A stretch of DNA of 8,831 bases from the IMG/VR virus record IMGVR_UViG_2648501498_000009, one strand, 5' to 3'. Position numbers and translations under genes: made by a program. A model generated the notes under the pieces. That model saw only the letters and a program-made list of their open reading frames with translations, did not search any database and was not told the DNA's origin. Origin of the DNA: a virus (Duplodnaviria > Heunggongvirae > Uroviricota > Caudoviricetes). This document shows positions 177 to 6,419 of this stretch, one piece after another. Positions within the stretch are counted from its first letter, which is position 1. The number at the start of each line of letters is the position of its first letter.

Positions 177-372
177 TTTTGATCCTCTTCAAAAGGCTAC
201 CTGTTACTGGTCGATTTAAGTCAATTTTTACCGCTGATTCGTGGAACAAATACTCTCTTCCATCCTTAACAGGAGGAGGGAATATCCTGCACTCGCGTAC
301 CCATCGACGAACTGTTTCAAGGCTTCTTGGGCGCCGCTGGCGTGCGTTCCACTCCTGAAGTGTCAAGTACAT
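154..372 (-). CDS. xis: Excisionase Xis (72 aa), lambda-type
   Basis: The 72-aa ORF MYLTLQEWNARQRRPRSLETVRRWVRECRIFPPPVKDGREYLFHESAVK… is near-identical to lambda Xis as I recall it. Position and overlap with the int start fit lambda. Confidence 0.9.
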   Translation of the reverse strand: MYLTLQEWNARQRRPRSLETVRRWVRECRIFPPPVKDGREYLFHESAVKIDLNRPVTGSLLKRIKNGKKAKS

Positions 373-384
373 CGCAAAGTCTCC

Positions 385-398
385 GCAATTACACGCAA
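385..398 (-). promoter_or_regulatory. TTGC-N6-TTGC motif (cII-type activator site), candidate pI-like promoter -35 region
   Basis: Plus strand reads GCAATTACACGCAA, i.e. TTGCGTGTAATTGC on the minus strand, 13-26 bp upstream of the xis ATG. This is the same architecture as lambda pI, where the cII-dependent transcript starts inside xis. Confidence 0.4.
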
Positions 399-422
399 GA
401 AAAAGCCGCCATCAGGCGGCTT
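396..422 (-). terminator. Intrinsic terminator on the minus strand, upstream of xis
   Basis: Hairpin GCCGCC-ATCA-GGCGGC (405-420) flanked by A/T pairs, followed on the minus strand by TTTTTCTTG. Confidence 0.5.
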
Positions 423-590: not shown

Positions 591-617
591 ATAAAACAAA
601 ACTCGCCGTAGCGAGTT
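591..617 (-). terminator. Intrinsic terminator-like hairpin, minus strand
   Basis: Stem AACTCGC/GCGAGTT with loop CGTA (600-617), followed on the minus strand by TTTGTTTTAT. Confidence 0.4.
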
Positions 618-620
618 CAG

Positions 621-649
621 ATAAAAGAAATCCTCGTCAGTGCGAGGAT
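621..649 (-). terminator. Second tandem terminator-like hairpin, minus strand
   Basis: Stem ATCCTCG/CGAGGAT with loop TCAGTG (630-649), followed on the minus strand by TTCTTTTAT. Confidence 0.4.
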
Positions 650-821
650 GCTGTTCATTGCTGCTATACACTTTTTTGCTCTCAACGTAAGCGGTAGCTC
701 ATTCTGTTGGGTTGGTGCAGTTGCTTTTAGGAAATGCTATTTACCCCTTAAACGTCGGCTGAAAGAGCTAAAATCCATGCAAAAAATTTACGCAATTTTG
801 TGTATTATTGTGCAGTAAGTA

Positions 822-1424
822 ATGAGCTATTTTCTGCGCAAAAAATGGATGGTAAATTTGTCCGGGGCAGGAAAAATTTTATGGGCGCTAAACATGAAAA
901 AAGATTCGTATCCTTATTTGATTTGCATGACAGTTTCAGGCCTGATCTTTATTTTCCTTTTCTTCTGGTGGCGGGCAGATATTTACAGGGTCACGTTTCT
1001 TAATCAGAGTATATCCCACTATTACATTCTGTTTAGCATGGGAATAGCTTTTCTGTTATCTCTGTTTTGGGTTAAGAAGGGGATAGTAAAACAAAGCGGC
1101 TGGAAGAGTCTGTCAGCATACCTTAAGGTTTATGCAGGGATGTGCATATTTGCTGGATTTTTTCTGATTATACCCCTTACAACACTAACTTATTTTTTGC
1201 CTGGAGAGACATCGTCTTATGTTGCACCGTATCGGTATACTTCCGGTAGTTCAAAAAGTTGTTCTGGAGCTGAGGTGGATGACCCCGATCTACATGAGAA
1301 TATTCGCATTTGCTATCCGTATGGCAATTATGAGTACGATAATATTATCTATGTTGAAAAGAAAATTAATACATTAGGTGCGGTAGTAACATATGCACAG
1401 ACCGCGCGTGATGATACTGAATGA
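822..1424 (+). CDS. Hypothetical membrane protein (200 aa from first ATG; alternative starts at 849 or 894), 3 predicted TM helices plus a roughly 75-aa C-terminal soluble domain; cargo gene of unknown function
   Basis: Long ORF in a visibly AT-rich block, on the strand opposite the pL operon. Three hydrophobic segments (YLICMTVSGLIFIFLFFWW, YYILFSMGIAFLLSLFWV, VYAGMCIFAGFFLIIPLTTLTYFL). A hairpin lies downstream. I recognise no homolog. Confidence 0.6.
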   Translation: MSYFLRKKWMVNLSGAGKILWALNMKKDSYPYLICMTVSGLIFIFLFFWWRADIYRVTFLNQSISHYYILFSMGIAFLLSLFWVKKGIVKQSGWKSLSAYLKVYAGMCIFAGFFLIIPLTTLTYFLPGETSSYVAPYRYTSGSSKSCSGAEVDDPDLHENIRICYPYGNYEYDNIIYVEKKINTLGAVVTYAQTARDDTE

Positions 1425-1458
1425 GATAGTATATAGCGGGCAAGTTTTAGTTAATTTA

Positions 1459-1496
1459 TCGAGGTAATATAATTTACCTCGACTCGTTTATTCTGG
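1459..1496 (+). terminator. Candidate intrinsic terminator for the plus-strand membrane-protein gene
   Basis: Perfect 9-bp stem TCGAGGTAA/TTACCTCGA with loop TATAAT (1459-1482), followed by T-rich CTCGTTTATTCTGG. It sits in a convergent intergenic region. Confidence 0.45.
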
Positions 1497-1634
1497 TATT
1501 AATATTTCGCTTTACGATCGATTTTTATCTGATGATATCATGCGGTTTTCATATACTGACTTACTGTCTTTTCTCCGTTAGCGATTTTCTCCTGCTCAGC
1601 GATGATTTTATCTTTGGCTTCTAGTTAATTTCGC

Positions 1635-2246: not shown

Positions 2247-2438
2247 TCATACCTGGTCTCTCTCATCTGCTTCTGCTTTCGCCACCATCATTTCCAGCTT
2301 TTGTGAAAGGGATGCGGCTAACGTATGAAATTCTTCGTCTGTTTCTACTGGTATTGGCACAAACCTGACTCCAATTTGAGCGAGGCTATGTGCCATCTCG
2401 ATACTCGTTCTTAACTCAACGGGAGATGCTTTGTGCAT
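2247..2438 (-). CDS. orf63: Lambda Orf63-like protein (63 aa)
   Basis: [23 protein letters not shown]…AEADERDQV matches my recollection of lambda orf63 in length, sequence and position. Confidence 0.7.
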   Translation of the reverse strand: MHKASPVELRTSIEMAHSLAQIGVRFVPIPVETDEEFHTLAASLSQKLEMMVAKAEADERDQV

Positions 2439-2599
2439 ACAGCTCCCCGTTTATTATTTATCTCCTCAGCCAGCCGCTGTGCTTTCAGTGGATTTCGGAT
2501 AACAGAAAGGCCGGGAAATACCCAGCCTCGCTTCGTAACGGAGTAGACGAAAGTGATCGTGCCTACGCGGATATTATCGTGAGGATGTTTCATCGCCAT
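2411..2599 (-). CDS. orf60a: Lambda Orf60a-like protein (62 aa as called; 60 aa if started at 2593)
   Basis: …[56 protein letters not shown]… matches lambda orf60a as I recall it. It lies immediately downstream of exo. Confidence 0.7.
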
Positions 2600-3270
2600 T
2601 GCTCCCCAAATACAAAACCAATTTCAGCCAGTGCCTCGTCCATTTTTTCGATGAACTCCGGCACCATCTCGTCAAAACTCGCTATATACTTTTCATTCCG
2701 CTCAATCACGACATAATGCAGGCCTTCACGCTTCATACGCGGGTCATAGTTGGCAAAGTACCAGGCATCTTTTCGCGTCACCCACATGCTGTACTGCACC
2801 TGGGCCATGTAAGCCGACTTTATGGCCTCGAAACCACCGAGCCGGAATTTCATGAAATCCCGGGAGGTAAACGGGCATTTCAGCTCAAGGCCATTGCCGT
2901 CACTGCATAAACCATCGGGAGAGCAGGCGGTGCGCATACTTTCGTCGCGATAGATGATCGGGGATTCAATAACATTTACGCCGGAAGTGAACTCAAACAG
3001 GGTTCTGGCGTCGTTCTCGTACTGTTTTCCCCAGGCCAGCGCTTTAGCGTTAACTTCCGGAGCCACACCGGTGCAAACCTCAGCTAGCAGGGTGTGGAAG
3101 TAGGACATTTTCATGTCAGGCCACTTCTTTCCTGATCGGGGCTTTGCTATCACGTTGTGAACTTCTGAAGCGGTGATGACGCCGAGCCGTAATTTGTGCC
3201 ATGCATCATCCCCCTGTTCGACAGCTCTCACGTCGATCCCGGTACGCTGCAGGATAATGTCCGGTGTCAT
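2590..3270 (-). CDS. exo: Lambda exonuclease (Red-alpha), 226 aa
   Basis: Full-length match to lambda Exo ([65 protein letters not shown]…GFVFGEQWR). Its ATG overlaps the bet stop (ATGA). Confidence 0.95.
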
Positions 3271-4052
3271 GCTGCCACCTTCTGCTCAGTGGCTTTCTGT
3301 TTCAGGAATCCAAGAGCTTTCACTGCTTCGGCCTGTGTCAGTTCTGACGATGCGCGAATGTCGCGGCGAAATATCAGGGAACAGAGCGGCAATAAGTCGT
3401 CATCCCATGTTTTATCCAGGGCGATCAGCAGAGTGTTAATCTCCTGCATGGTTTCATCGTTAACCGGAGTGATGTCGCGTTCCGGCTGACGTTCTGCAGT
3501 GTATGCAGTATTTTCGACAATGCGCTCGGCTTCATCCTTGTCATAGATACCAGCAAATCCGAAGGCCAGACGGGCACACTGAATCATGGCTTTATGCCGT
3601 AACATCCGTTTGGGATGCGACTGCCACGGTCCGGTGATTTCTCTGCCTTCGCGGGTTTTGAATGGTTCGCGGCGGCATTCATCCATCCACTCGGTAACGC
3701 AGATCGGATGATTGCGGTCTTTGCGGTAAATCCGGCATGTGCAGGATTCGTTGTCCTGTTCAAAGTCCATGCCGTCAAACTGCTGGTTTTCGTTGATGAT
3801 GCGGGACCAGCCATCAACGCCCACCACCGGAACGATGCCGTTCTGCTTATCAGGGAAGGCGTAAATTTCTTTCGTCCACGGATTAAGACCGTACTGGTTG
3901 GCGACGATCAGCAATGCGATGAACTGCGCATCGCTGGCATCACCTTTAAATGCCGTCTGGCGAAGAGTGGTGATCAGTTCCTGTGGGTCGACAGAATCCA
4001 TGCCGACTCGTTCAGCCAGCTTCCCAGCCAGCGTTGCGAGTGCTGTACTCAT
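3267..4052 (-). CDS. bet: Beta single-strand annealing protein (Red-beta), 261 aa
   Basis: Full-length match to lambda Bet ([66 protein letters not shown]…). Confidence 0.95.
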
Positions 4053-4057
4053 CCGTT

Positions 4058-4474
4058 TTATACCTCTGAATCAATATCAACCTGGTGGTGAGCAATGGTT
4101 TCAACCATGTACCGGATGTGTTCTGCCATGCGCTCCTGAAACTCAACATCGTCATCAAACGCACGGGTAATGGCTTTTTTGCTGGCCCCGTGGCGTTGCA
4201 AATGATCGATGCATAGCGATTCAAACAGGTGCTGGGGCAGGCCTTTTTCCATGTCGTCTGCCAGTTCTGCCTCTTTCTCTTCACGGGCGATCTGCTGGTA
4301 GTGACGCGCCCAGCTCTGAGCCTCAAGACGATCCTGAATGTAATAAGCGTTCATGGCTGAACTCCTGAAATAGCTGTGAAAATATCGCCCGCGAAATGCC
4401 AGGCTGATTAGGAAAACAGGAAAGGGGGTTAGTGAATGCTTTTGCTTGATCTCAGTTTCAGCATTAATATCCAT
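4058..4474 (-). CDS. gam: Gam RecBCD inhibitor (138-aa long form)
   Basis: Match to lambda Gam (…[59 protein letters not shown]…VDIDSEV). It overlaps kil by 46 nt as in lambda. Confidence 0.95.
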
Positions 4475-4572
4475 TTTTTATAAGCGTCGACGGCTTCACG
4501 AAACATCTTTTCATCGCCAATAAAAGTGGCGATAGTGAATTTAGTCTGGATAGCCATAAGTGTTTGATCCAT
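4429..4572 (-). CDS. kil: Kil host-killing protein (FtsZ inhibitor), 47 aa
   Basis: Internal ATG at 4572 of the 89-aa ORF gives [47 protein letters not shown], matching lambda Kil. The 5' extension in the ORF track is rejected. Confidence 0.85.
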
Positions 4573-4705
4573 TCTTTGGGACTCCTGGCTGATTAAGTAT
4601 GTCGATAAGGCGTTTCCATCCGTCACGTAATTTACGGGTGATTCGTTCAAGTAAAGATTCGGAAGGGCAGCCAGCAACAGGCCACCCTGCAATGGCATAT
4701 TGCAT
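4541..4705 (-). CDS. cIII: cIII (FtsH protease inhibitor), 54 aa
   Basis: Internal ATG at 4705 gives [54 protein letters not shown], matching lambda cIII. It overlaps kil by 32 nt as in lambda. Confidence 0.9.
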   Translation of the reverse strand: MQYAIAGWPVAGCPSESLLERITRKLRDGWKRLIDILNQPGVPKNGSNTYGYPD

Positions 4706-4777
4706 GGTGTGCTCCTTATTTATACATAACGAAAAACGCCTCGAGTGAAGCGTTATTGGTATGCGGTAAAACCGCAC

Positions 4778-5146
4778 TCAGGCGGCCTTGATAGTCATAT
4801 CATCTGAATCAAATATTCCTGATGTATCGATATCGGTAATTCTTATTCCTTCGCTACCATCCATTGGAGGCCATCCTTCCTGACCATTTCCATCATTCCA
4901 GTCGAACTCACACACAACACCATATGCATTTAAGTCGCTTGAAATTGCTATAAGCAGAGCATGTTGCGCCAGCATGATTAATACAGCATTTAATACAGAG
5001 CCGTGTTTATTGAGTCGGTATTCAGAGTCTGACCAGAAATTATTAATCTGGTGAAGTTTTTCCTCTGTCATTACGTCATGGTCGATTTCAATTTCTATTG
5101 ATGCTTTCCAGTCGTAATCAATGATGTATTTTTTGATGTTTGACAT
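4778..5146 (-). CDS. ea10: Ea10-like early protein (122 aa)
   Basis: 122-aa ORF 72 nt downstream of cIII in operon orientation. Length and position match lambda ea10; the sequence is consistent with my recollection but I am less sure than for the Red genes. Confidence 0.7.
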   Translation of the reverse strand: MSNIKKYIIDYDWKASIEIEIDHDVMTEEKLHQINNFWSDSEYRLNKHGSVLNAVLIMLAQHALLIAISSDLNAYGVVCEFDWNDGNGQEGWPPMDGSEGIRITDIDTSGIFDSDDMTIKAA

Positions 5147-5162
5147 CTATTCATATCCTCAT

Positions 5163-5192
5163 AGATAAAAAATCGCCCTCACACTGGAGGGC
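5163..5192 (-). terminator. Intrinsic terminator upstream of ea10 (minus strand)
   Basis: Stem GCCCTC/GAGGGC with loop ACACTG (5175-5192), followed on the minus strand by ATTTTTTATCT. Confidence 0.45.
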
Positions 5193-5254
5193 AAAGAAGA
5201 TTTCCAATAATCAGAACAAGTCGGCTCCTGTTTAGTTACGAGCGACATTGCTCC

Positions 5255-5282
5255 GTGTATTCACTCGTTGGAATGAATACAC
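5255..5282. repeat. 9-bp perfect inverted repeat GTGTATTCA…TGAATACAC with 10-bp spacer
   Basis: Seen directly in an intergenic region between two terminators. It could be an operator-like protein site or an RNA hairpin. Confidence 0.4.
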
Positions 5283-5310
5283 AGTGCAGTGTTTATTCTG
5301 TTGTTAGTGC

Positions 5311-5337
5311 CAAAAATAAAGGCCGACTATGCGGCCT
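5311..5337 (-). terminator. Intrinsic terminator immediately downstream of the 149-aa membrane-protein gene
   Basis: Stem AGGCCG/CGGCCT with loop ACTATG (5320-5337), followed on the minus strand by TTATTTTTG. It starts 5 nt after the stop codon. Confidence 0.55.
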
Positions 5338-5341
5338 GAAA

Positions 5342-5791
5342 TTACTTAACCAATGATGCTGCATATTCGATAAGGTAAAGCTTTGGAGCCAGCAAAATTT
5401 CTAACCATGTCATATTGGTTACTACAGCAATAATAAAACTTACCCACAGAACAAAAACTGCAGCTAATGGTAAGATTAGAAAACTAATCTCACCGTTACT
5501 TTCCCAAATCATAGTCGGTTTGTATTTAGTCTTCCCCTTATCCCATGACCATCCTTCATCATCGAACTTACCAATTTCAACTTTTTGGTACTGTTTCTTC
5601 ATAAACCAGAAAACCAGCGGGATTGTTAAAATGGCTATTAATGTTTTAATCAGGCTATCAACCATATTCCATAGCAGCAACTGATGAACAACATCAGGAA
5701 TCTGTGCCTGGCTAAATGAGACAGCCGCGTCTATTCCATTACTGGCTTTTTGCAATAGTTCTATGAGAATCTTATTTGCCTGTTCTTCCAT
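5342..5791 (-). CDS. Hypothetical 2-TM membrane protein (149 aa) in the N-proximal sieB/ral accessory slot; possible superinfection-exclusion-type function
   Basis: AT-rich ORF with a good RBS (GGTGA, 5 nt before the ATG) placed right after the N stop. Two hydrophobic helices (LIKTLIAILTIPLVFWFM; ISFLILPLAAVFVLWVSFIIAVV). It has its own terminator. The function is inferred from position only. Confidence 0.6.
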   Translation of the reverse strand: MEEQANKILIELLQKASNGIDAAVSFSQAQIPDVVHQLLLWNMVDSLIKTLIAILTIPLVFWFMKKQYQKVEIGKFDDEGWSWDKGKTKYKPTMIWESNGEISFLILPLAAVFVLWVSFIIAVVTNMTWLEILLAPKLYLIEYAASLVK

Positions 5792-5799
5792 ATATCACC

Positions 5800-6099
5800 T
5801 CAAATAAGTGGTTTGCTGCCTAATTTCATTTTCTGGCGACCAACACAAGTCACACCCATTTCACTGCGTGGCTTGCTGTAGTAAATACGGTTCTGTTTAC
5901 GCTCGACTTCTTCTGCCTTCTGGCAGCGAAGGCTTCCGAGTGATGCTGCTTTATCTGCTCTGACGCAACCAGAGAGCTTTAGCGCAATCTTTCGCGCCAG
6001 TCGCTGCTCTTGCATTGCCTGTTCACGTTGAGCCTGTCTGCGTGCTCTGCGGCGATTTCTGGCGTTATCGTCAGCCAGATATGTAATGACTACTGTCAT
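5800..6099 (-). CDS. N-family transcription antitermination protein (99 aa)
   Basis: Strong GGAGG RBS. N-terminal arginine-rich motif (NARNRRRARRQAQREQ). The C-terminus KQNRIYYSKPRSEMGVTCVGRQKMKLGSKPLI resembles lambda N (…KNQRTWYSKPGERGITCSGRQKIKGKSIPLI). It is the first gene downstream of pL/nutL. Confidence 0.85.
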   Translation of the reverse strand: MTVVITYLADDNARNRRRARRQAQREQAMQEQRLARKIALKLSGCVRADKAASLGSLRCQKAEEVERKQNRIYYSKPRSEMGVTCVGRQKMKLGSKPLI

Positions 6100-6212
6100 G
6101 TTGACCTCCGATGATTGACTTTAGCGGTGACGTGACGGGGGGTGGGAGGTTAATTCCCTGATGCTGTCGCGCGGCTGCACTTCACATCACCCCAAAGCCA
6201 ACTACTCTTTGG

Positions 6213-6255
6213 TTCCCGCATTTCGGCGGGACAATCCCATCAATGTTAAAGAGCC
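6213..6255 (-). promoter_or_regulatory. nutL (boxA plus boxB)
   Basis: Minus strand reads GGCTCTTTAACA (boxA) then the hairpin TCCCGC-CGAAAT-GCGGGA (boxB). The boxB core is identical to the one in nutR at 7367-7384. Confidence 0.65.
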
Positions 6256-6289
6256 TGCCAATCTGTTCCGTTTGGCTACCAGCGTCCTG

Positions 6290-6335
6290 CTGATGACTTA
6301 AATTTAAGATTTCTTTAATTTGTGGTCAAGAGTGT
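6290..6335 (-). promoter_or_regulatory. pL promoter with oL operators (P22-type ATTTAAG…CTTAAAT sites)
   Basis: Minus-strand -35 TTGACC (6324-6329) and -10 TAAATT (6301-6306) at 17-bp spacing. An 18-bp operator ATTTAAGATTTCTTTAAT (6302-6319) overlaps it, with further TTAAG/CTTAA sites nearby. Confidence 0.5.
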
Positions 6336-6393
6336 TTTTGAAGAAAACTTAAATTTTATTGCAGGGCTTAAGTTTTGCTTTGATTTTTAAAGG

Positions 6394-6419
6394 AAAGAAA
6401 AAAGGGGCGAATGCCCCTT
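6394..6419 (-). terminator. Intrinsic terminator for the repressor gene
   Basis: Stem AAGGGGC/GCCCCTT with loop GAAT (6402-6419) followed on the minus strand by TTTTTTCTTT. The repressor stop codon lies inside the hairpin. Confidence 0.7.

What the first reader, a model, noticed from the sequence alone, without database searches (positions are those of the whole stretch)
700..1500. AT-rich, opposite-strand 3-TM membrane-protein cargo gene in the xis–Red accessory slot
Where lambda carries ea8.5/ea22, this prophage carries a plus-strand ORF of up to 200 aa (822-1424) with three TM helices and a C-terminal soluble domain (…CSGAEVDDPDLHENIRICYPYGNYEYDNIIYVEKKINTLGAVVTYAQ…). It is AT-rich against a roughly 50% GC lambda-like backbone, runs against the pL operon, and has a hairpin terminator (1459-1496). 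That is the signature of a lysogen-expressed horizontally acquired cargo gene (a 'moron'). This int-proximal slot is a known hotspot for anti-phage and superinfection-exclusion cargo. I recognise no homolog, so it is the best candidate here for an undescribed single-gene defence or exclusion function. The start codon is unresolved (ATG at 822, 849 or 894, none with a strong SD) and I could not define a clean sigma70 promoter; only a -10-like TATTAT at 803-808.
Basis: partly seen in the sequence, partly recalled or inferred. Interest (0 to 1): 0.75.

Follow-up and report, generated by a model that had tools for sequence, protein, structure and literature searches.

The report
Prophage membrane-protein cargo gene, untested
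A small self-contained gene cassette in this lambda-like prophage (identical to one in classical phage 434) encodes a conserved 176-residue inner-membrane protein of unknown function. Its relatives are among the commonest cargo in the known anti-phage hotspot of P2-like prophages, so it is a good but still untested candidate for a protein that protects the host cell from other phages.

Summary
A plus-strand ORF (822-1424) lies against the pL operon between xis/ORF55 and orf73. It is AT-rich (GC 0.39, against 0.52 for exo/bet), has three hydrophobic helices and a C-terminal domain, and is followed by a hairpin.

Corrections:
- The true protein is 176 aa, starting at ATG 894. All nine other loci examined lack any in-frame start upstream, and one has a stop inside the "extension".
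- It is not without homologues. It is 100% identical to phage 434 gene CPT_434_36, is present in 915 of 5,426 complete E. coli genomes (ECs0804 in O157 Sakai), and is 52% identical to "System #4 (3 TM)" of Rousset et al. 2022. That system is the fourth commonest cargo (470 occurrences) in the P2 gpA-gpQ (tin/old) defence hotspot; it was catalogued there and is absent from that paper's table of tested systems.

A 775-bp block (757-1531) containing upstream motifs, ORF and hairpin is shared between the lambda-type and P2-type contexts. dN/dS is 0.08-0.33, and the gene stays intact in decaying prophages. Conservation concentrates on the predicted periplasmic face, a disulfide-capable five-strand beta-barrel with no informative fold relative.

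No characterised homologue was found in Pfam, NCBIfam, PADLOC, PDB or P22 SieA. The best reading is an envelope-level superinfection-exclusion or anti-phage protein. That function is inferred, not shown.

The parts
757..1531 (+). Mobile cassette ('moron'): one contiguous homology block shared with the E. coli P2-like prophage copy, covering upstream region, ORF and hairpin
   Evidence: blastn of window 757-1531 against L016 5864-6636: 76% identity over 778 columns, E = 3e-160. Salmonella P2-type copies match 761/798-1392.
778..814 (+). Conserved upstream element: an A-tract (780-789), then TTGTGT (798-803) and TTGTGCA (808-814) direct repeats 10 bp apart. The phage 434 record annotates this as a 'CII binding site'.
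   Evidence: Conserved in lambda-type, P2-type and partly chromosomal contexts, with 2-3 repeats (alignment A3). It is the only TTGTGY-N4-TTGTGY match in the window. 434 annotation. The window's canonical CII boxes are TTGC...TTGC.
822..893 (+). Open 5' extension of the reading frame; probably not translated. It overlaps the conserved promoter-like motifs.
   Evidence: No in-frame start upstream of the conserved ATG in 9 of 9 other loci, and a stop codon inside it in T16R.
850..858 (+). Extended -10-like motif TGGTAAATT, which predicts a transcription start near 865. TTTTCT at 830-835 would be a weak -35.
   Evidence: TG(G/A)TAA(A/T/G)TT is conserved in 8 of 9 loci at 35-39 nt from the ATG. 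It is not significant on its own within the window (3 found, 1.6 expected). No experimental transcription start is available.
883..885 (+). Weak Shine-Dalgarno-like GGG, 8 nt before ATG 894
   Evidence: Read from the sequence. A G-rich run lies at the same place in homologues.
894..1424 (+). Coding sequence, 176 aa plus stop: a 3-TM inner-membrane protein
   Evidence: Conserved start. dN/dS 0.08-0.33. 100% identical to phage 434. AF2 pLDDT 87.
912..971 (+). TM helix 1 (aa 7-26), a signal-anchor with its N-terminus in the cytoplasm
   Evidence: Hydropathy; AF2 helix 5-29.
972..1013 (+). Loop 1 (aa 27-40), predicted periplasmic, with the conserved I-x-R-x-T-F-L motif forming a short strand
   Evidence: Invariant I30, T34 and L36. 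AF2 strand 34-36.
1014..1070 (+). TM helix 2 (aa 41-59)
1071..1127 (+). Loop 2 (aa 60-78), cytoplasmic and strongly basic (5 K/R, net charge +5)
   Evidence: Charge count. No invariant positions among 19.
1128..1202 (+). TM helix 3 (aa 79-103)
1203..1403 (+). C-terminal domain (aa 104-170), predicted periplasmic: a five-strand small beta-barrel. The invariant Cys codons are at 1260-1262 (C123) and 1311-1313 (C140).
1459..1492 (+). Intrinsic-terminator-like hairpin (9-bp stem, 6-nt loop) with a T-rich tail
   Evidence: Terminator scan. RNA fold z = -2.8. Partly conserved in the P2 copy, with one compensatory pair but a shortened T-tract.

Best explanation
Window 757-1531 is a horizontally mobile, self-contained cargo cassette (a 'moron'). 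It consists of a conserved upstream control region, a 176-aa ORF (894-1424) and a terminator-like hairpin.

The product is a small inner-membrane protein. Its N-terminus is in the cytoplasm, it has three TM helices, and its only sizeable soluble part is a ~70-residue five-strand beta-barrel with two invariant cysteines. That barrel faces the periplasm together with a conserved first loop.

The most likely function is envelope-level protection of the lysogen against other phages, that is, superinfection exclusion. The periplasmic face would bind either an incoming phage's DNA-delivery apparatus (tape-measure or ejection proteins) or the periplasmic part of an inner-membrane entry factor. Genome translocation across the inner membrane would then fail without killing the cell, as with P22 SieA or HK97 gp15.

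Shown: the gene is real, its start codon, purifying selection, cassette mobility between two phage families, retention in decaying prophages, and predicted topology and fold.

Inferred: expression in lysogens, anti-phage function, and the entry-block mechanism.
For: Real, selected gene:
- 57 clusters at 50% identity share one ~170-aa architecture.
- dN/dS is 0.08-0.33. Against the remnant copy there are zero non-synonymous changes at dS 0.06.
- The exact sequence occurs on more than 1,000 contigs.

Cassette mobility:
- One 775-bp block, including 137 nt upstream and the hairpin, is shared by lambda-type and P2-type prophages.

Location:
- Homologues in four genera lie between portal gpQ and replication gpA of P2-like prophages.
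- That locus holds P2 old and tin and many validated defence systems (PMC9122126).
- A 52%-identical member is the fourth commonest 'system' there, with 470 occurrences.

Host-beneficial retention:
- The gene is intact while int, bet and exo are pseudogenes or IS-disrupted in O157 Sp3.
- It is also intact in a dsdC/torI-adjacent remnant in two unrelated strains.

Where it acts:
- Cytoplasmic parts are tiny and not conserved (0 of 19 invariant positions in loop 2).
- The predicted periplasmic domain holds 20 of 67 invariant positions, including two Cys.

Precedents:
- P22 SieA has 162/164 aa, 3 TM helices, its own promoter and an uncertain start, and blocks DNA injection (PMC10883804).
- HK97 gp15 is a moron-encoded inner-membrane exclusion protein whose homologues are mostly chromosomal and confined to Enterobacteriaceae (PMC3594210). 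The distribution here is the same.
Against: - No experiment of any kind exists. There is no hit in PADLOC, Pfam or NCBIfam, and PHROGs gives only an 'unknown function' family.
- There is no homology to SieA (hhalign probability 0.1%) and no informative fold relative.
- The P2 hotspot also holds non-defence cargo, such as partition systems and cytolethal distending toxin, so location there is suggestive only.
- Rousset et al. catalogued the family, but it is absent from their table of tested systems. It is also absent from the held supplements of two large E. coli defence screens, which could mean either untested or negative.
- Homologues of 42-48% identity are embedded among ordinary chromosomal genes with host-like GC-rich flanks, which suggests a cellular role for at least part of the family.
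- The promoter is only a conserved motif; the consensus scan finds no sigma-70 promoter.
- Topology is predicted, not measured.
Confidence: 0.45

Rival explanations
1. Lysogenic-conversion envelope function unrelated to phages. The protein could be an orphan immunity or protection protein against membrane-targeting toxins (pore-forming colicins or microcins, CDI or T6SS effectors). Alternatively it could be a stress or virulence-related envelope factor, like lambda Bor/Lom or Cor's colicin M protection.
For: - It is a small polytopic inner-membrane protein whose conserved face is periplasmic. That general shape matches immunity proteins to pore-forming colicins (own knowledge).
- Chromosomal homologues lie among ordinary genes in Enterobacter, Klebsiella and Cedecea.
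- It is retained in defective prophages of pathogens such as O157 and O104.
- The P2 hotspot also carries non-defence cargo.
- Moron products have diverse non-defence roles (PMC3594210).
Against: - Pfam gives no hit at E <= 1 apart from a weak DUF6057 match, so nothing points to colicin or microcin immunity or any other family.
- No cognate toxin gene is adjacent in any context examined.
- The family is enriched in a locus where most tested unknowns turn out to be antiviral.
Confidence: 0.22
2. Abortive-infection membrane effector. The protein senses an envelope perturbation caused by infection and then permeabilises or depolarises the inner membrane, killing the cell before phage release.
For: - In known systems, transmembrane proteins in these hotspots are usually thought to be suicide effectors (PMC9122126).
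- Three TM helices could oligomerise into a pore.
- It sits in the hotspot.
Against: - It is a single gene with no partner sensor in any context.
- It has almost no cytoplasmic surface with which to sense phage components.
- The TM helices are the least conserved parts, with no invariant residue in TM2, which is unlike a pore lining.
- It is stably carried in 17% of complete E. coli genomes.
Confidence: 0.13
3. A CII-activated gene or antisense transcript acting at the lysis-lysogeny decision. The TTGT-N6-TTGT site at 798-811 would be a CII box, as annotated in the phage 434 record. CII would then drive rightward transcription through the gene, antisense to the distal pL operon, by analogy with paQ.
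For: - The 434 curators annotated this site as matching the CII consensus TTGY-N6-TTGY.
- The window encodes a CII homologue (Pfam Phage_CII, E = 4e-44).
- The orientation is antisense to pL.
Against: - The repeats are longer (TTGTGCA) and are conserved, in 2-3 copies, upstream of the P2-prophage copies, which have no lambda-type CII as far as I know.
- The window's canonical CII boxes at pI (385-398) and pRE (7476-7489) are TTGC...TTGC, not TTGT...TTGT.
- The pattern is expected about 2 times by chance in the window.
- The spacing to any -10-like hexamer does not match pRE or pI (read from the sequence).
- The gene persists in Sakai Sp3, where the region between bet and the late genes has no annotated repressor or cII.
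Confidence: 0.08
4. A spurious or decaying ORF with no function.
For: - Gene callers in some records miss or split it; 2B8 is annotated with 159- and 150-nt fragments.
- It has a weak Shine-Dalgarno sequence and no consensus promoter.
Against: - dN/dS is 0.08-0.33 across genera.
- 20 C-terminal positions are invariant at 42-78% overall identity.
- AF2 gives a confident fold.
- The ORF is intact in hundreds of genomes.
Confidence: 0.02

Closest known systems
Rousset et al. 2022 (PMC9122126), Table S5B 'System #4', the '3 TM' single protein of the E. coli P2-like gpA-gpQ hotspot
   Same: - Same protein family: 52% identity over 168 aa, E = 3e-57, with the same CSGAxVDDPDL...ICYPYG...LGAVVTYA motifs.
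- Same size and 3-TM annotation.
- Single-gene cargo.
   Different: - The window copy sits in a lambda-type prophage between xis/ORF55 and orf73, not in the P2 hotspot.
- System #4 was only catalogued (470 occurrences). Its sequence is absent from the table of tested systems.
Phage 434 gene CPT_434_36 (UMO75300.1, 'putative membrane protein'), and the same gene in phages 2B8 and mEp332 and in O157 Sakai (ECs0804)
   Same: - The 176-aa protein is 100% identical (99.4% in mEp332), and the DNA is 99.8-99.9% identical (98.5% in mEp332) over 600-1700.
- Same slot and orientation.
   Different: - The 434 record starts the CDS at TTG 858 (188 aa) and PGAP at ATG 822 (200 aa). Comparative evidence supports ATG 894.
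- 434 has an extra ORF114 between xis and ORF55.
- No function is assigned anywhere.
P22 SieA (inner-membrane superinfection-exclusion protein)
   Same: - About 160-176 aa, three predicted TM helices and no cleavable signal peptide.
- Its own promoter inside a prophage, an uncertain start codon, and confinement to Enterobacteriaceae prophages (PMC10883804).
- This is the proposed mode of action by analogy.
   Different: - No sequence or profile similarity (hhalign probability 0.1%).
- SieA's conserved motif FxRYPxEAxxFNK is predicted to be cytoplasmic, whereas here the conserved domain is predicted periplasmic.
- SieA sits between genes 16 and 9 of P22-like phages.
HK97 gp15 (the first 'moron' product; inner-membrane exclusion protein, YebO-related)
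   Same: - A moron cassette with its own promoter and terminator and deviant GC.
- A small inner-membrane protein.
- Homologues confined to Enterobacteriaceae, many of them outside prophages (PMC3594210).
   Different: - gp15 is a different and much smaller protein (single TM helix, from my own knowledge) in the tail operon.
- No Pfam or PHROG link to it was found for the protein studied here.
P2 old and tin (the canonical occupants of the gpA-gpQ hotspot)
   Same: Homologues of the gene studied here occupy the same locus as single-gene, prophage-expressed exclusion cargo.
   Different: Old (an ATPase/TOPRIM nuclease) and Tin are cytoplasmic proteins with unrelated sequences and mechanisms (own knowledge; PMC9122126).

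Membership tests
Moron (Juhala/Hendrix sense, as summarised in PMC3594210) | [quoted passage not shown] | tested here: met
   Gene GC 0.388 and GC3 0.373, against exo 0.518/0.608, bet 0.528/0.588 and xis 0.475.
Moron (Juhala/Hendrix sense, as summarised in PMC3594210) | An obvious addition between genes that are otherwise neighbours in related phages, spread by horizontal transfer | tested here: met
   The slot content differs in lambda, 434 and this window. The same 775-bp block is found in P2-like prophages.
Moron (Juhala/Hendrix sense, as summarised in PMC3594210) | Own terminator | tested here: met
   Hairpin 1459-1482 with a T-rich tail, z = -2.8. It is prediction only and is only partly conserved in the P2 copy.
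Moron (Juhala/Hendrix sense, as summarised in PMC3594210) | Own promoter | tested here: inconclusive
   The consensus scan finds none upstream. A TGnTAAnTT extended -10-like motif and upstream repeats are conserved across contexts. No transcription-start data are available.
Moron (Juhala/Hendrix sense, as summarised in PMC3594210) | Expressed from the repressed prophage | not testable with these tools
   No expression data were found for ECs0804 or for the RefSeq accessions.
P2-hotspot 'System #4 / 3 TM' family (PMC9122126, Table S5B) | Sequence homology over the full length | tested here: met
   52% identity over 168 aa, E = 3e-57. Family alignment.
P2-hotspot 'System #4 / 3 TM' family (PMC9122126, Table S5B) | Located between gpA and gpQ of a P2-like prophage | tested here: not met
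   The window copy lies between xis/ORF55 and orf73 of a lambda-type prophage. Homologues P0039, P0044, P0048, P0052 and P0055 do lie in the P2 locus.
P22 SieA family | Sequence homology, including the FxRYPxEAxxFNK motif | tested here: not met
   hhalign probability 0.1% with 5 aligned columns. The motif is absent from the sequence.
P22 SieA family | Inner-membrane protein of ~160 aa with three TM helices | tested here: met
   Prediction only: hydropathy and AF2.
P22 SieA family | Blocks DNA injection by superinfecting phage | not testable with these tools
   Requires infection assays.
Known or candidate anti-phage defence systems (PADLOC-DB v2.0.0) | Match to any model | tested here: not met
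   0 families at E <= 1.
Curated protein families (Pfam-A, NCBIfam), which would include any colicin or microcin immunity, YebO, SieB or holin models they hold | Match above threshold to any model | tested here: not met
   Pfam gives only DUF6057 at E = 0.25, 10.6 bits against a cut-off of 29.8. NCBIfam gives none. PHROGs gives phrog_1416, 'unknown function', covering the C-terminal 88 aa only.
Lambda CII-dependent promoter | TTGC-N6-TTGC box flanking a -35 region, with a -10 about 12 nt downstream; dependent on CII | tested here: inconclusive
   The site is TTGT-N6-TTGT. The window's pI and pRE boxes are TTGC...TTGC. The repeats are conserved in P2-type contexts. No suitably spaced -10 is visible. 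Binding cannot be tested here.

The most novel reading that the evidence does not exclude
The protein founds a new family of single-protein, envelope-level anti-phage exclusion factors. A three-helix membrane anchor would present a disulfide-stabilised periplasmic mini-barrel, with no characterised structural relative, that intercepts the DNA-delivery machinery of incoming phages.

The family travels as a promoter-ORF-terminator cassette between the accessory slots of two unrelated temperate-phage lineages, lambda-like and P2-like. It may have been recruited from a chromosomal enterobacterial gene. Its conserved upstream TTGTGCA repeats would be an operator for a host factor that tunes expression.
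Probability: 0.35. Interest if true: 0.7.

Novelty: new member of a known kind. Interest (0 to 1): 0.55.

Why it matters
If the function is confirmed, this would assign a role to one of the most abundant unexplained cargo genes of E. coli prophages. It is present in about 17% of complete genomes, including O157:H7, O104:H4 and O121, and is the fourth commonest item in the P2 defence hotspot.

It would also add a structurally new example to the very small set of inner-membrane superinfection-exclusion proteins whose targets are known.

The protein is encoded, at 100% identity, by classical phage 434. That makes the question directly testable with existing strains and genetics.

The shared cassette also gives a clean example of cargo exchange between the lambda exo-xis region and the P2 cos-proximal hotspot.

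Tried and rejected
Searches that gave nothing useful:
- Pfam, NCBIfam and PADLOC scans gave no usable hit.
- PHROGs matched only an unknown-function family built on a truncated 90-aa form.
- The afdb50 library was unavailable.
- A PDB sequence-profile search found nothing.
- Profile comparison with P22 SieA showed no homology.
- A profile search of 1.84 billion representatives found no new architectures or fused domains, only 57 clusters of the same ~170-aa form.
- Literature searches for accessions and locus tags (WP_000120060, UMO75300, ECs0804 and others) found no paper on the gene.
- The sequence is absent from the held supplements of Vassallo 2022 and DefensePredictor. The 2026 P2/P4 paper has no held supplements.

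Analyses and readings I dropped:
- A global pairwise alignment to find cassette limits inflated identity in non-homologous flanks. I replaced it with local blastn.
- I rejected the 200-aa, 191-aa and 188-aa starts.
- I rejected the upstream 56-aa ORF 648-818, annotated 'putative membrane protein' in 434, as part of the unit. It has no PHROG hit, and the cassette homology begins at 757, inside it.
- I rejected a lipoprotein or cleavable signal-peptide reading, because there is no lipobox and the Cys in TM1 is not conserved.
- The M60848 'ORF-22+' is in a different frame and has no support.
Full report
**1. The observation**

The window is the left arm of a lambda-type prophage. On the minus strand it carries xis (154-372), ORF55 (412-579), and orf73/TraR-like (1635-1856). 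These are followed by the orf61, orf63 and orf60a equivalents, then exo, bet, gam, kil/cIII and a DUF2528 gene. Next come a 149-aa unknown, an N-like gene and a P22-c2-like repressor (6418-7068). The rightward genes are cro, cII (Pfam Phage_CII) and an O replication gene cut off by an IS4/Tn5-type transposase fragment.

Its composition is clearly deviant. GC is 0.35-0.40 in 300-nt windows over 700-1500, against 0.44-0.55 on either side. The gene's GC3 is 0.373, against about 0.6 for exo and bet. Two other AT-rich islands exist in the window, at 4800-5800 and 6200-6600.

Hydropathy gives three segments above the 1.6 threshold. The terminator scan finds the 1459-1482 hairpin with a T-rich tail (4 sites in the region against 0.8 expected), and its RNA fold has z = -2.8.

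**2. The start codon**

Divergent homologues (42-78% identity) from Salmonella, Enterobacter, Klebsiella and Cedecea all begin at the residue aligned with M25, which is ATG 894.

I walked back from that ATG in nine other loci. None has an in-frame ATG, GTG or TTG before the first stop. In the E. coli T16R copy the 'extension' itself contains a stop, so PGAP aa there.

The protein is therefore 176 aa (894-1424). The 200-aa (PGAP), 188-aa (434 record, TTG 858) and 191-aa forms are over-extensions that happen to be open in this lineage.

**3. What it is identical to**

- The DNA of 600-1700 is 99.8-99.9% identical to phages 434 and 2B8, and 98.5% to mEp332.
- The 176-aa protein is 100% identical to that of 434 (99.4% in mEp332). 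These are the only hits among 50,697 phage records.
- The curated 434 record calls it 'putative membrane protein' (CPT_434_36). The genome announcement used InterPro, TMHMM and HHpred and assigns no function.
- The 801-bp region occurs in 915 of 5,426 complete E. coli genomes, always chromosomal, at 95-100% identity, and always annotated 'hypothetical protein'.
- In O157 Sakai it is ECs0804 in the defective prophage Sp3.
- I found no paper that mentions the gene by any accession or locus tag.

**4. Family, selection and structure**

An exhaustive HMM search of 1.84 billion representative proteins finds only 57 clusters at 50% identity. All are about 170 aa with the same architecture and no fused domains. 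The named sources are all Enterobacteriaceae.

dN/dS between genera is 0.08-0.33. Against the T16R remnant copy there are no non-synonymous changes at dS = 0.06.

AlphaFold2 with the family alignment gives pLDDT 87 and pTM 0.73. The model has helices at 5-29, 38-61 and 70-101, a short strand at 34-36, and a five-strand beta domain at 105-171. The isolated C-domain models at pLDDT 90.

The charge distribution favours an N-in/C-out topology:
- The N-terminus has 2 K/R residues.
- Loop 2 has 5 K/R residues and a net charge of +5.
- The C-domain has a net charge of -5.

This topology puts loop 1 and the C-domain in the periplasm. That fits the two invariant cysteines (C123 and C140) and the short loop-1 strand, which can only pair with the C-domain.

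Conservation is concentrated on that face. The C-domain has 20 of 67 invariant positions, and loop 1 carries the IxRxTFL motif. By contrast, the cytoplasmic loop has 0 of 19 invariant positions and TM2 has 0 of 19.

Fold searches are uninformative:
- Nothing is found in BFVD.
- Nothing is found by sequence profile in the PDB.

**5. Genomic context of homologues (the key result)**

Five lineages sit between the portal gene (Q) and the replication gene (A) of P2-like prophages: E. coli P0039 (78%), Salmonella P0044 (70%) and P0048 (59%), Klebsiella P0055 (56%) and Enterobacter P0052 (57%). They lie next to varied cargo such as a YafO toxin, an AAA_16 protein pair, ParM/StbA and methyltransferases.

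This cos-proximal gpA-gpQ locus holds P2's exclusion genes old and tin. Rousset et al. 2022 characterised it as a defence hotspot (PMC9122126).

It is 52% identical to the window protein over 168 residues (E = 3e-57). Its sequence is absent from their Table S2 of cloned and tested systems. It is also absent from the held supplements of Vassallo 2022 and DefensePredictor, and from PADLOC-DB.

So the family is catalogued and abundant, but as far as I can tell it is functionally untested.

More distant members (42-48% identity: P0069, P0068) and P0054 (55%) lie among ordinary chromosomal genes, such as LysR regulators, GGDEF proteins and PTS operons. HK97 gp15 and its YebO relatives show the same pattern (PMC3594210).

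**6. The cassette**

Local blastn shows one contiguous block, window 757-1531, shared with the E. coli P2-type locus at 76% identity. It runs from 137 nt upstream of the ATG to 107 nt past the stop.

An alignment of upstream regions from lambda-type, remnant, P2-type and chromosomal contexts shows three conserved elements:
- an A-tract;
- two or three TTGTGCA direct repeats with a 10-bp period (window 798-814);
- a TG(G/A)TAA(A/T/G)TT motif (window 850-858), present in 8 of 9 loci at 35-39 nt from the ATG.

I read the last as an extended -10, which predicts a transcription start near 865. That also argues against the longer ORFs. This reading is inference. Each motif alone is not significant in the window, and the consensus promoter scan finds nothing.

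The 434 record labels the repeats a 'CII binding site'. I think this unlikely for three reasons:
- The repeats are conserved upstream of the P2-prophage copies.
- They are TTGT rather than TTGC, whereas the window's own pI (385-398) and pRE (7476-7489) boxes are canonical TTGC...TTGC.
- No suitably spaced -10 follows them.

The hairpin is retained in the P2 copy with one compensatory A-T to G-C change, but also one mismatch and a shorter T-tract.

**7. Retention in decaying prophages**

In O157 strains the prophage at ybhC has an IS-disrupted exo and a truncated bet, or int and bet pseudogenes and no immunity region in Sakai Sp3. The gene remains intact in all of them.

In T16R and JSWP021, two unrelated strains, an identical 176-aa protein survives in a small remnant beside torI/dsdC. 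Its neighbours there are a frameshifted IS4, a broken YqaJ recombinase and a tail-fibre-assembly fragment. This is the pattern expected of a host-beneficial gene.

**8. Interpretation**

Three things are shown:
- It is a real, selected and mobile promoter-ORF-terminator cassette.
- It encodes a small polytopic membrane protein.
- Its conserved surface is extracytoplasmic.

The function is inferred. The hotspot location, single-gene organisation, orientation antisense to pL, retention in remnants and lack of a cytoplasmic sensing surface together favour an envelope-level anti-phage function. That would be superinfection exclusion by blocking genome entry, as with P22 SieA (162/164 aa, 3 TM, own promoter; PMC10883804) or HK97 gp15. 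It would work like those proteins but is not a member of either family, since homology to SieA was tested and not found.

My confidence is about 0.45 for exclusion specifically and about 0.55-0.6 for anti-phage function of any kind. The rivals are:
- a non-phage envelope or immunity function (0.22);
- an abortive-infection membrane effector (0.13);
- a CII-driven role at the lysogeny decision (0.08);
- no function (0.02).

**9. Novelty and score**

The gene itself is not new to databases and has been catalogued. Its function, however, is unknown, its periplasmic domain has no characterised relative, and its presence in two independent prophage accessory slots has, as far as I found, not been noted.

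If it is an exclusion protein, it is a new member of a known kind. I score interest at 0.55. It is a well-supported, abundant and immediately testable candidate, because it is in phage 434. It is not a surprising new principle, and no functional evidence exists yet.

Noticed in passing
window 5342-5791 (-): A second AT-rich ORF (GC 0.37) of 149 aa, with hydrophobic stretches and no Pfam hit; PHROGs matches only phrog_3054, 'unknown function'. It sits between the N-like gene and the DUF2528/cIII genes, roughly where lambda carries ral/sieB. It could be another membrane cargo or exclusion candidate on the pL strand.
   Followed up: partly
window 7711-8142 (+) and 8130-8768 (-): The O replication gene (Pfam Phage_rep_O) ends after 143 aa, where an IS4/Tn5-type transposase fragment begins (weak DDE_Tnp_1 and Dimer_Tnp_Tn5 hits). 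GC jumps to 0.56-0.59 at that point. The prophage in this window therefore looks replication-defective.
   Followed up: partly
window 372-412, compared with L001 (phage 434) 2333-2813: This prophage lacks the 114-codon ORF114 that 434 carries between xis and ORF55. This is further cargo turnover in the same exo-xis slot.
   Followed up: partly
window 599-649: Two adjacent hairpins lie here. The 630-649 hairpin scores as a terminator on both strands and corresponds to the 'tL4' terminator annotated in M60848. A second leftward terminator-like hairpin lies at 618-599. Together they insulate the cassette from ORF55/xis.
   Followed up: partly
window 385-398 (-), 7452-7465 (-), 7476-7489 (-): Canonical CII boxes (TTGC-N6-TTGC) occur at the expected pI position just upstream of xis and at the expected pRE position inside the start of cII. 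A third, half-canonical box lies 24 nt away from the pRE box.
   Followed up: no
window 648-818 (+): A 56-aa ORF annotated 'putative membrane protein' in the phage 434 record has no PHROG, NCBIfam or PADLOC hit. It also straddles the left boundary (757) of the conserved cassette, so it is probably not a gene.
   Followed up: partly
L006 (E. coli T16R) 3078-6487 and L025 (JSWP021): A tiny prophage remnant next to dsdC/torI keeps only torI, one hypothetical ORF and this membrane-protein gene intact. Around them are a frameshifted IS4, a broken YqaJ recombinase and a tail-fibre-assembly fragment. The same arrangement occurs in two unrelated strains.
   Followed up: partly
L010-L012 (Enterobacter) 5085-6510: In the Enterobacter chromosomal context the 169-aa homologue starts 17 nt after a same-strand LysR-family regulator gene and has GC-rich, host-like flanks. 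This suggests an old resident copy, possibly co-transcribed with the regulator. The Klebsiella homologue also abuts a LysR gene, in convergent orientation.
   Followed up: no
L021/L022 (Klebsiella P2-like prophage) 2281-5623: Immediately upstream of the homologue, in the P2 hotspot, lies a 790-aa AAA_16-like protein plus a 279-aa protein with no Pfam hit. This looks like a two-gene defence-system candidate.
   Followed up: no
PHROGs phrog_1416: The only phage-family model for this protein is 90 positions long and covers just the last TM helix and the C-domain (aa 113-200 of the 200-aa form). It was apparently built from truncated gene calls such as those in the 2B8 record, so automated annotation will keep under-calling this gene.
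   Followed up: partly
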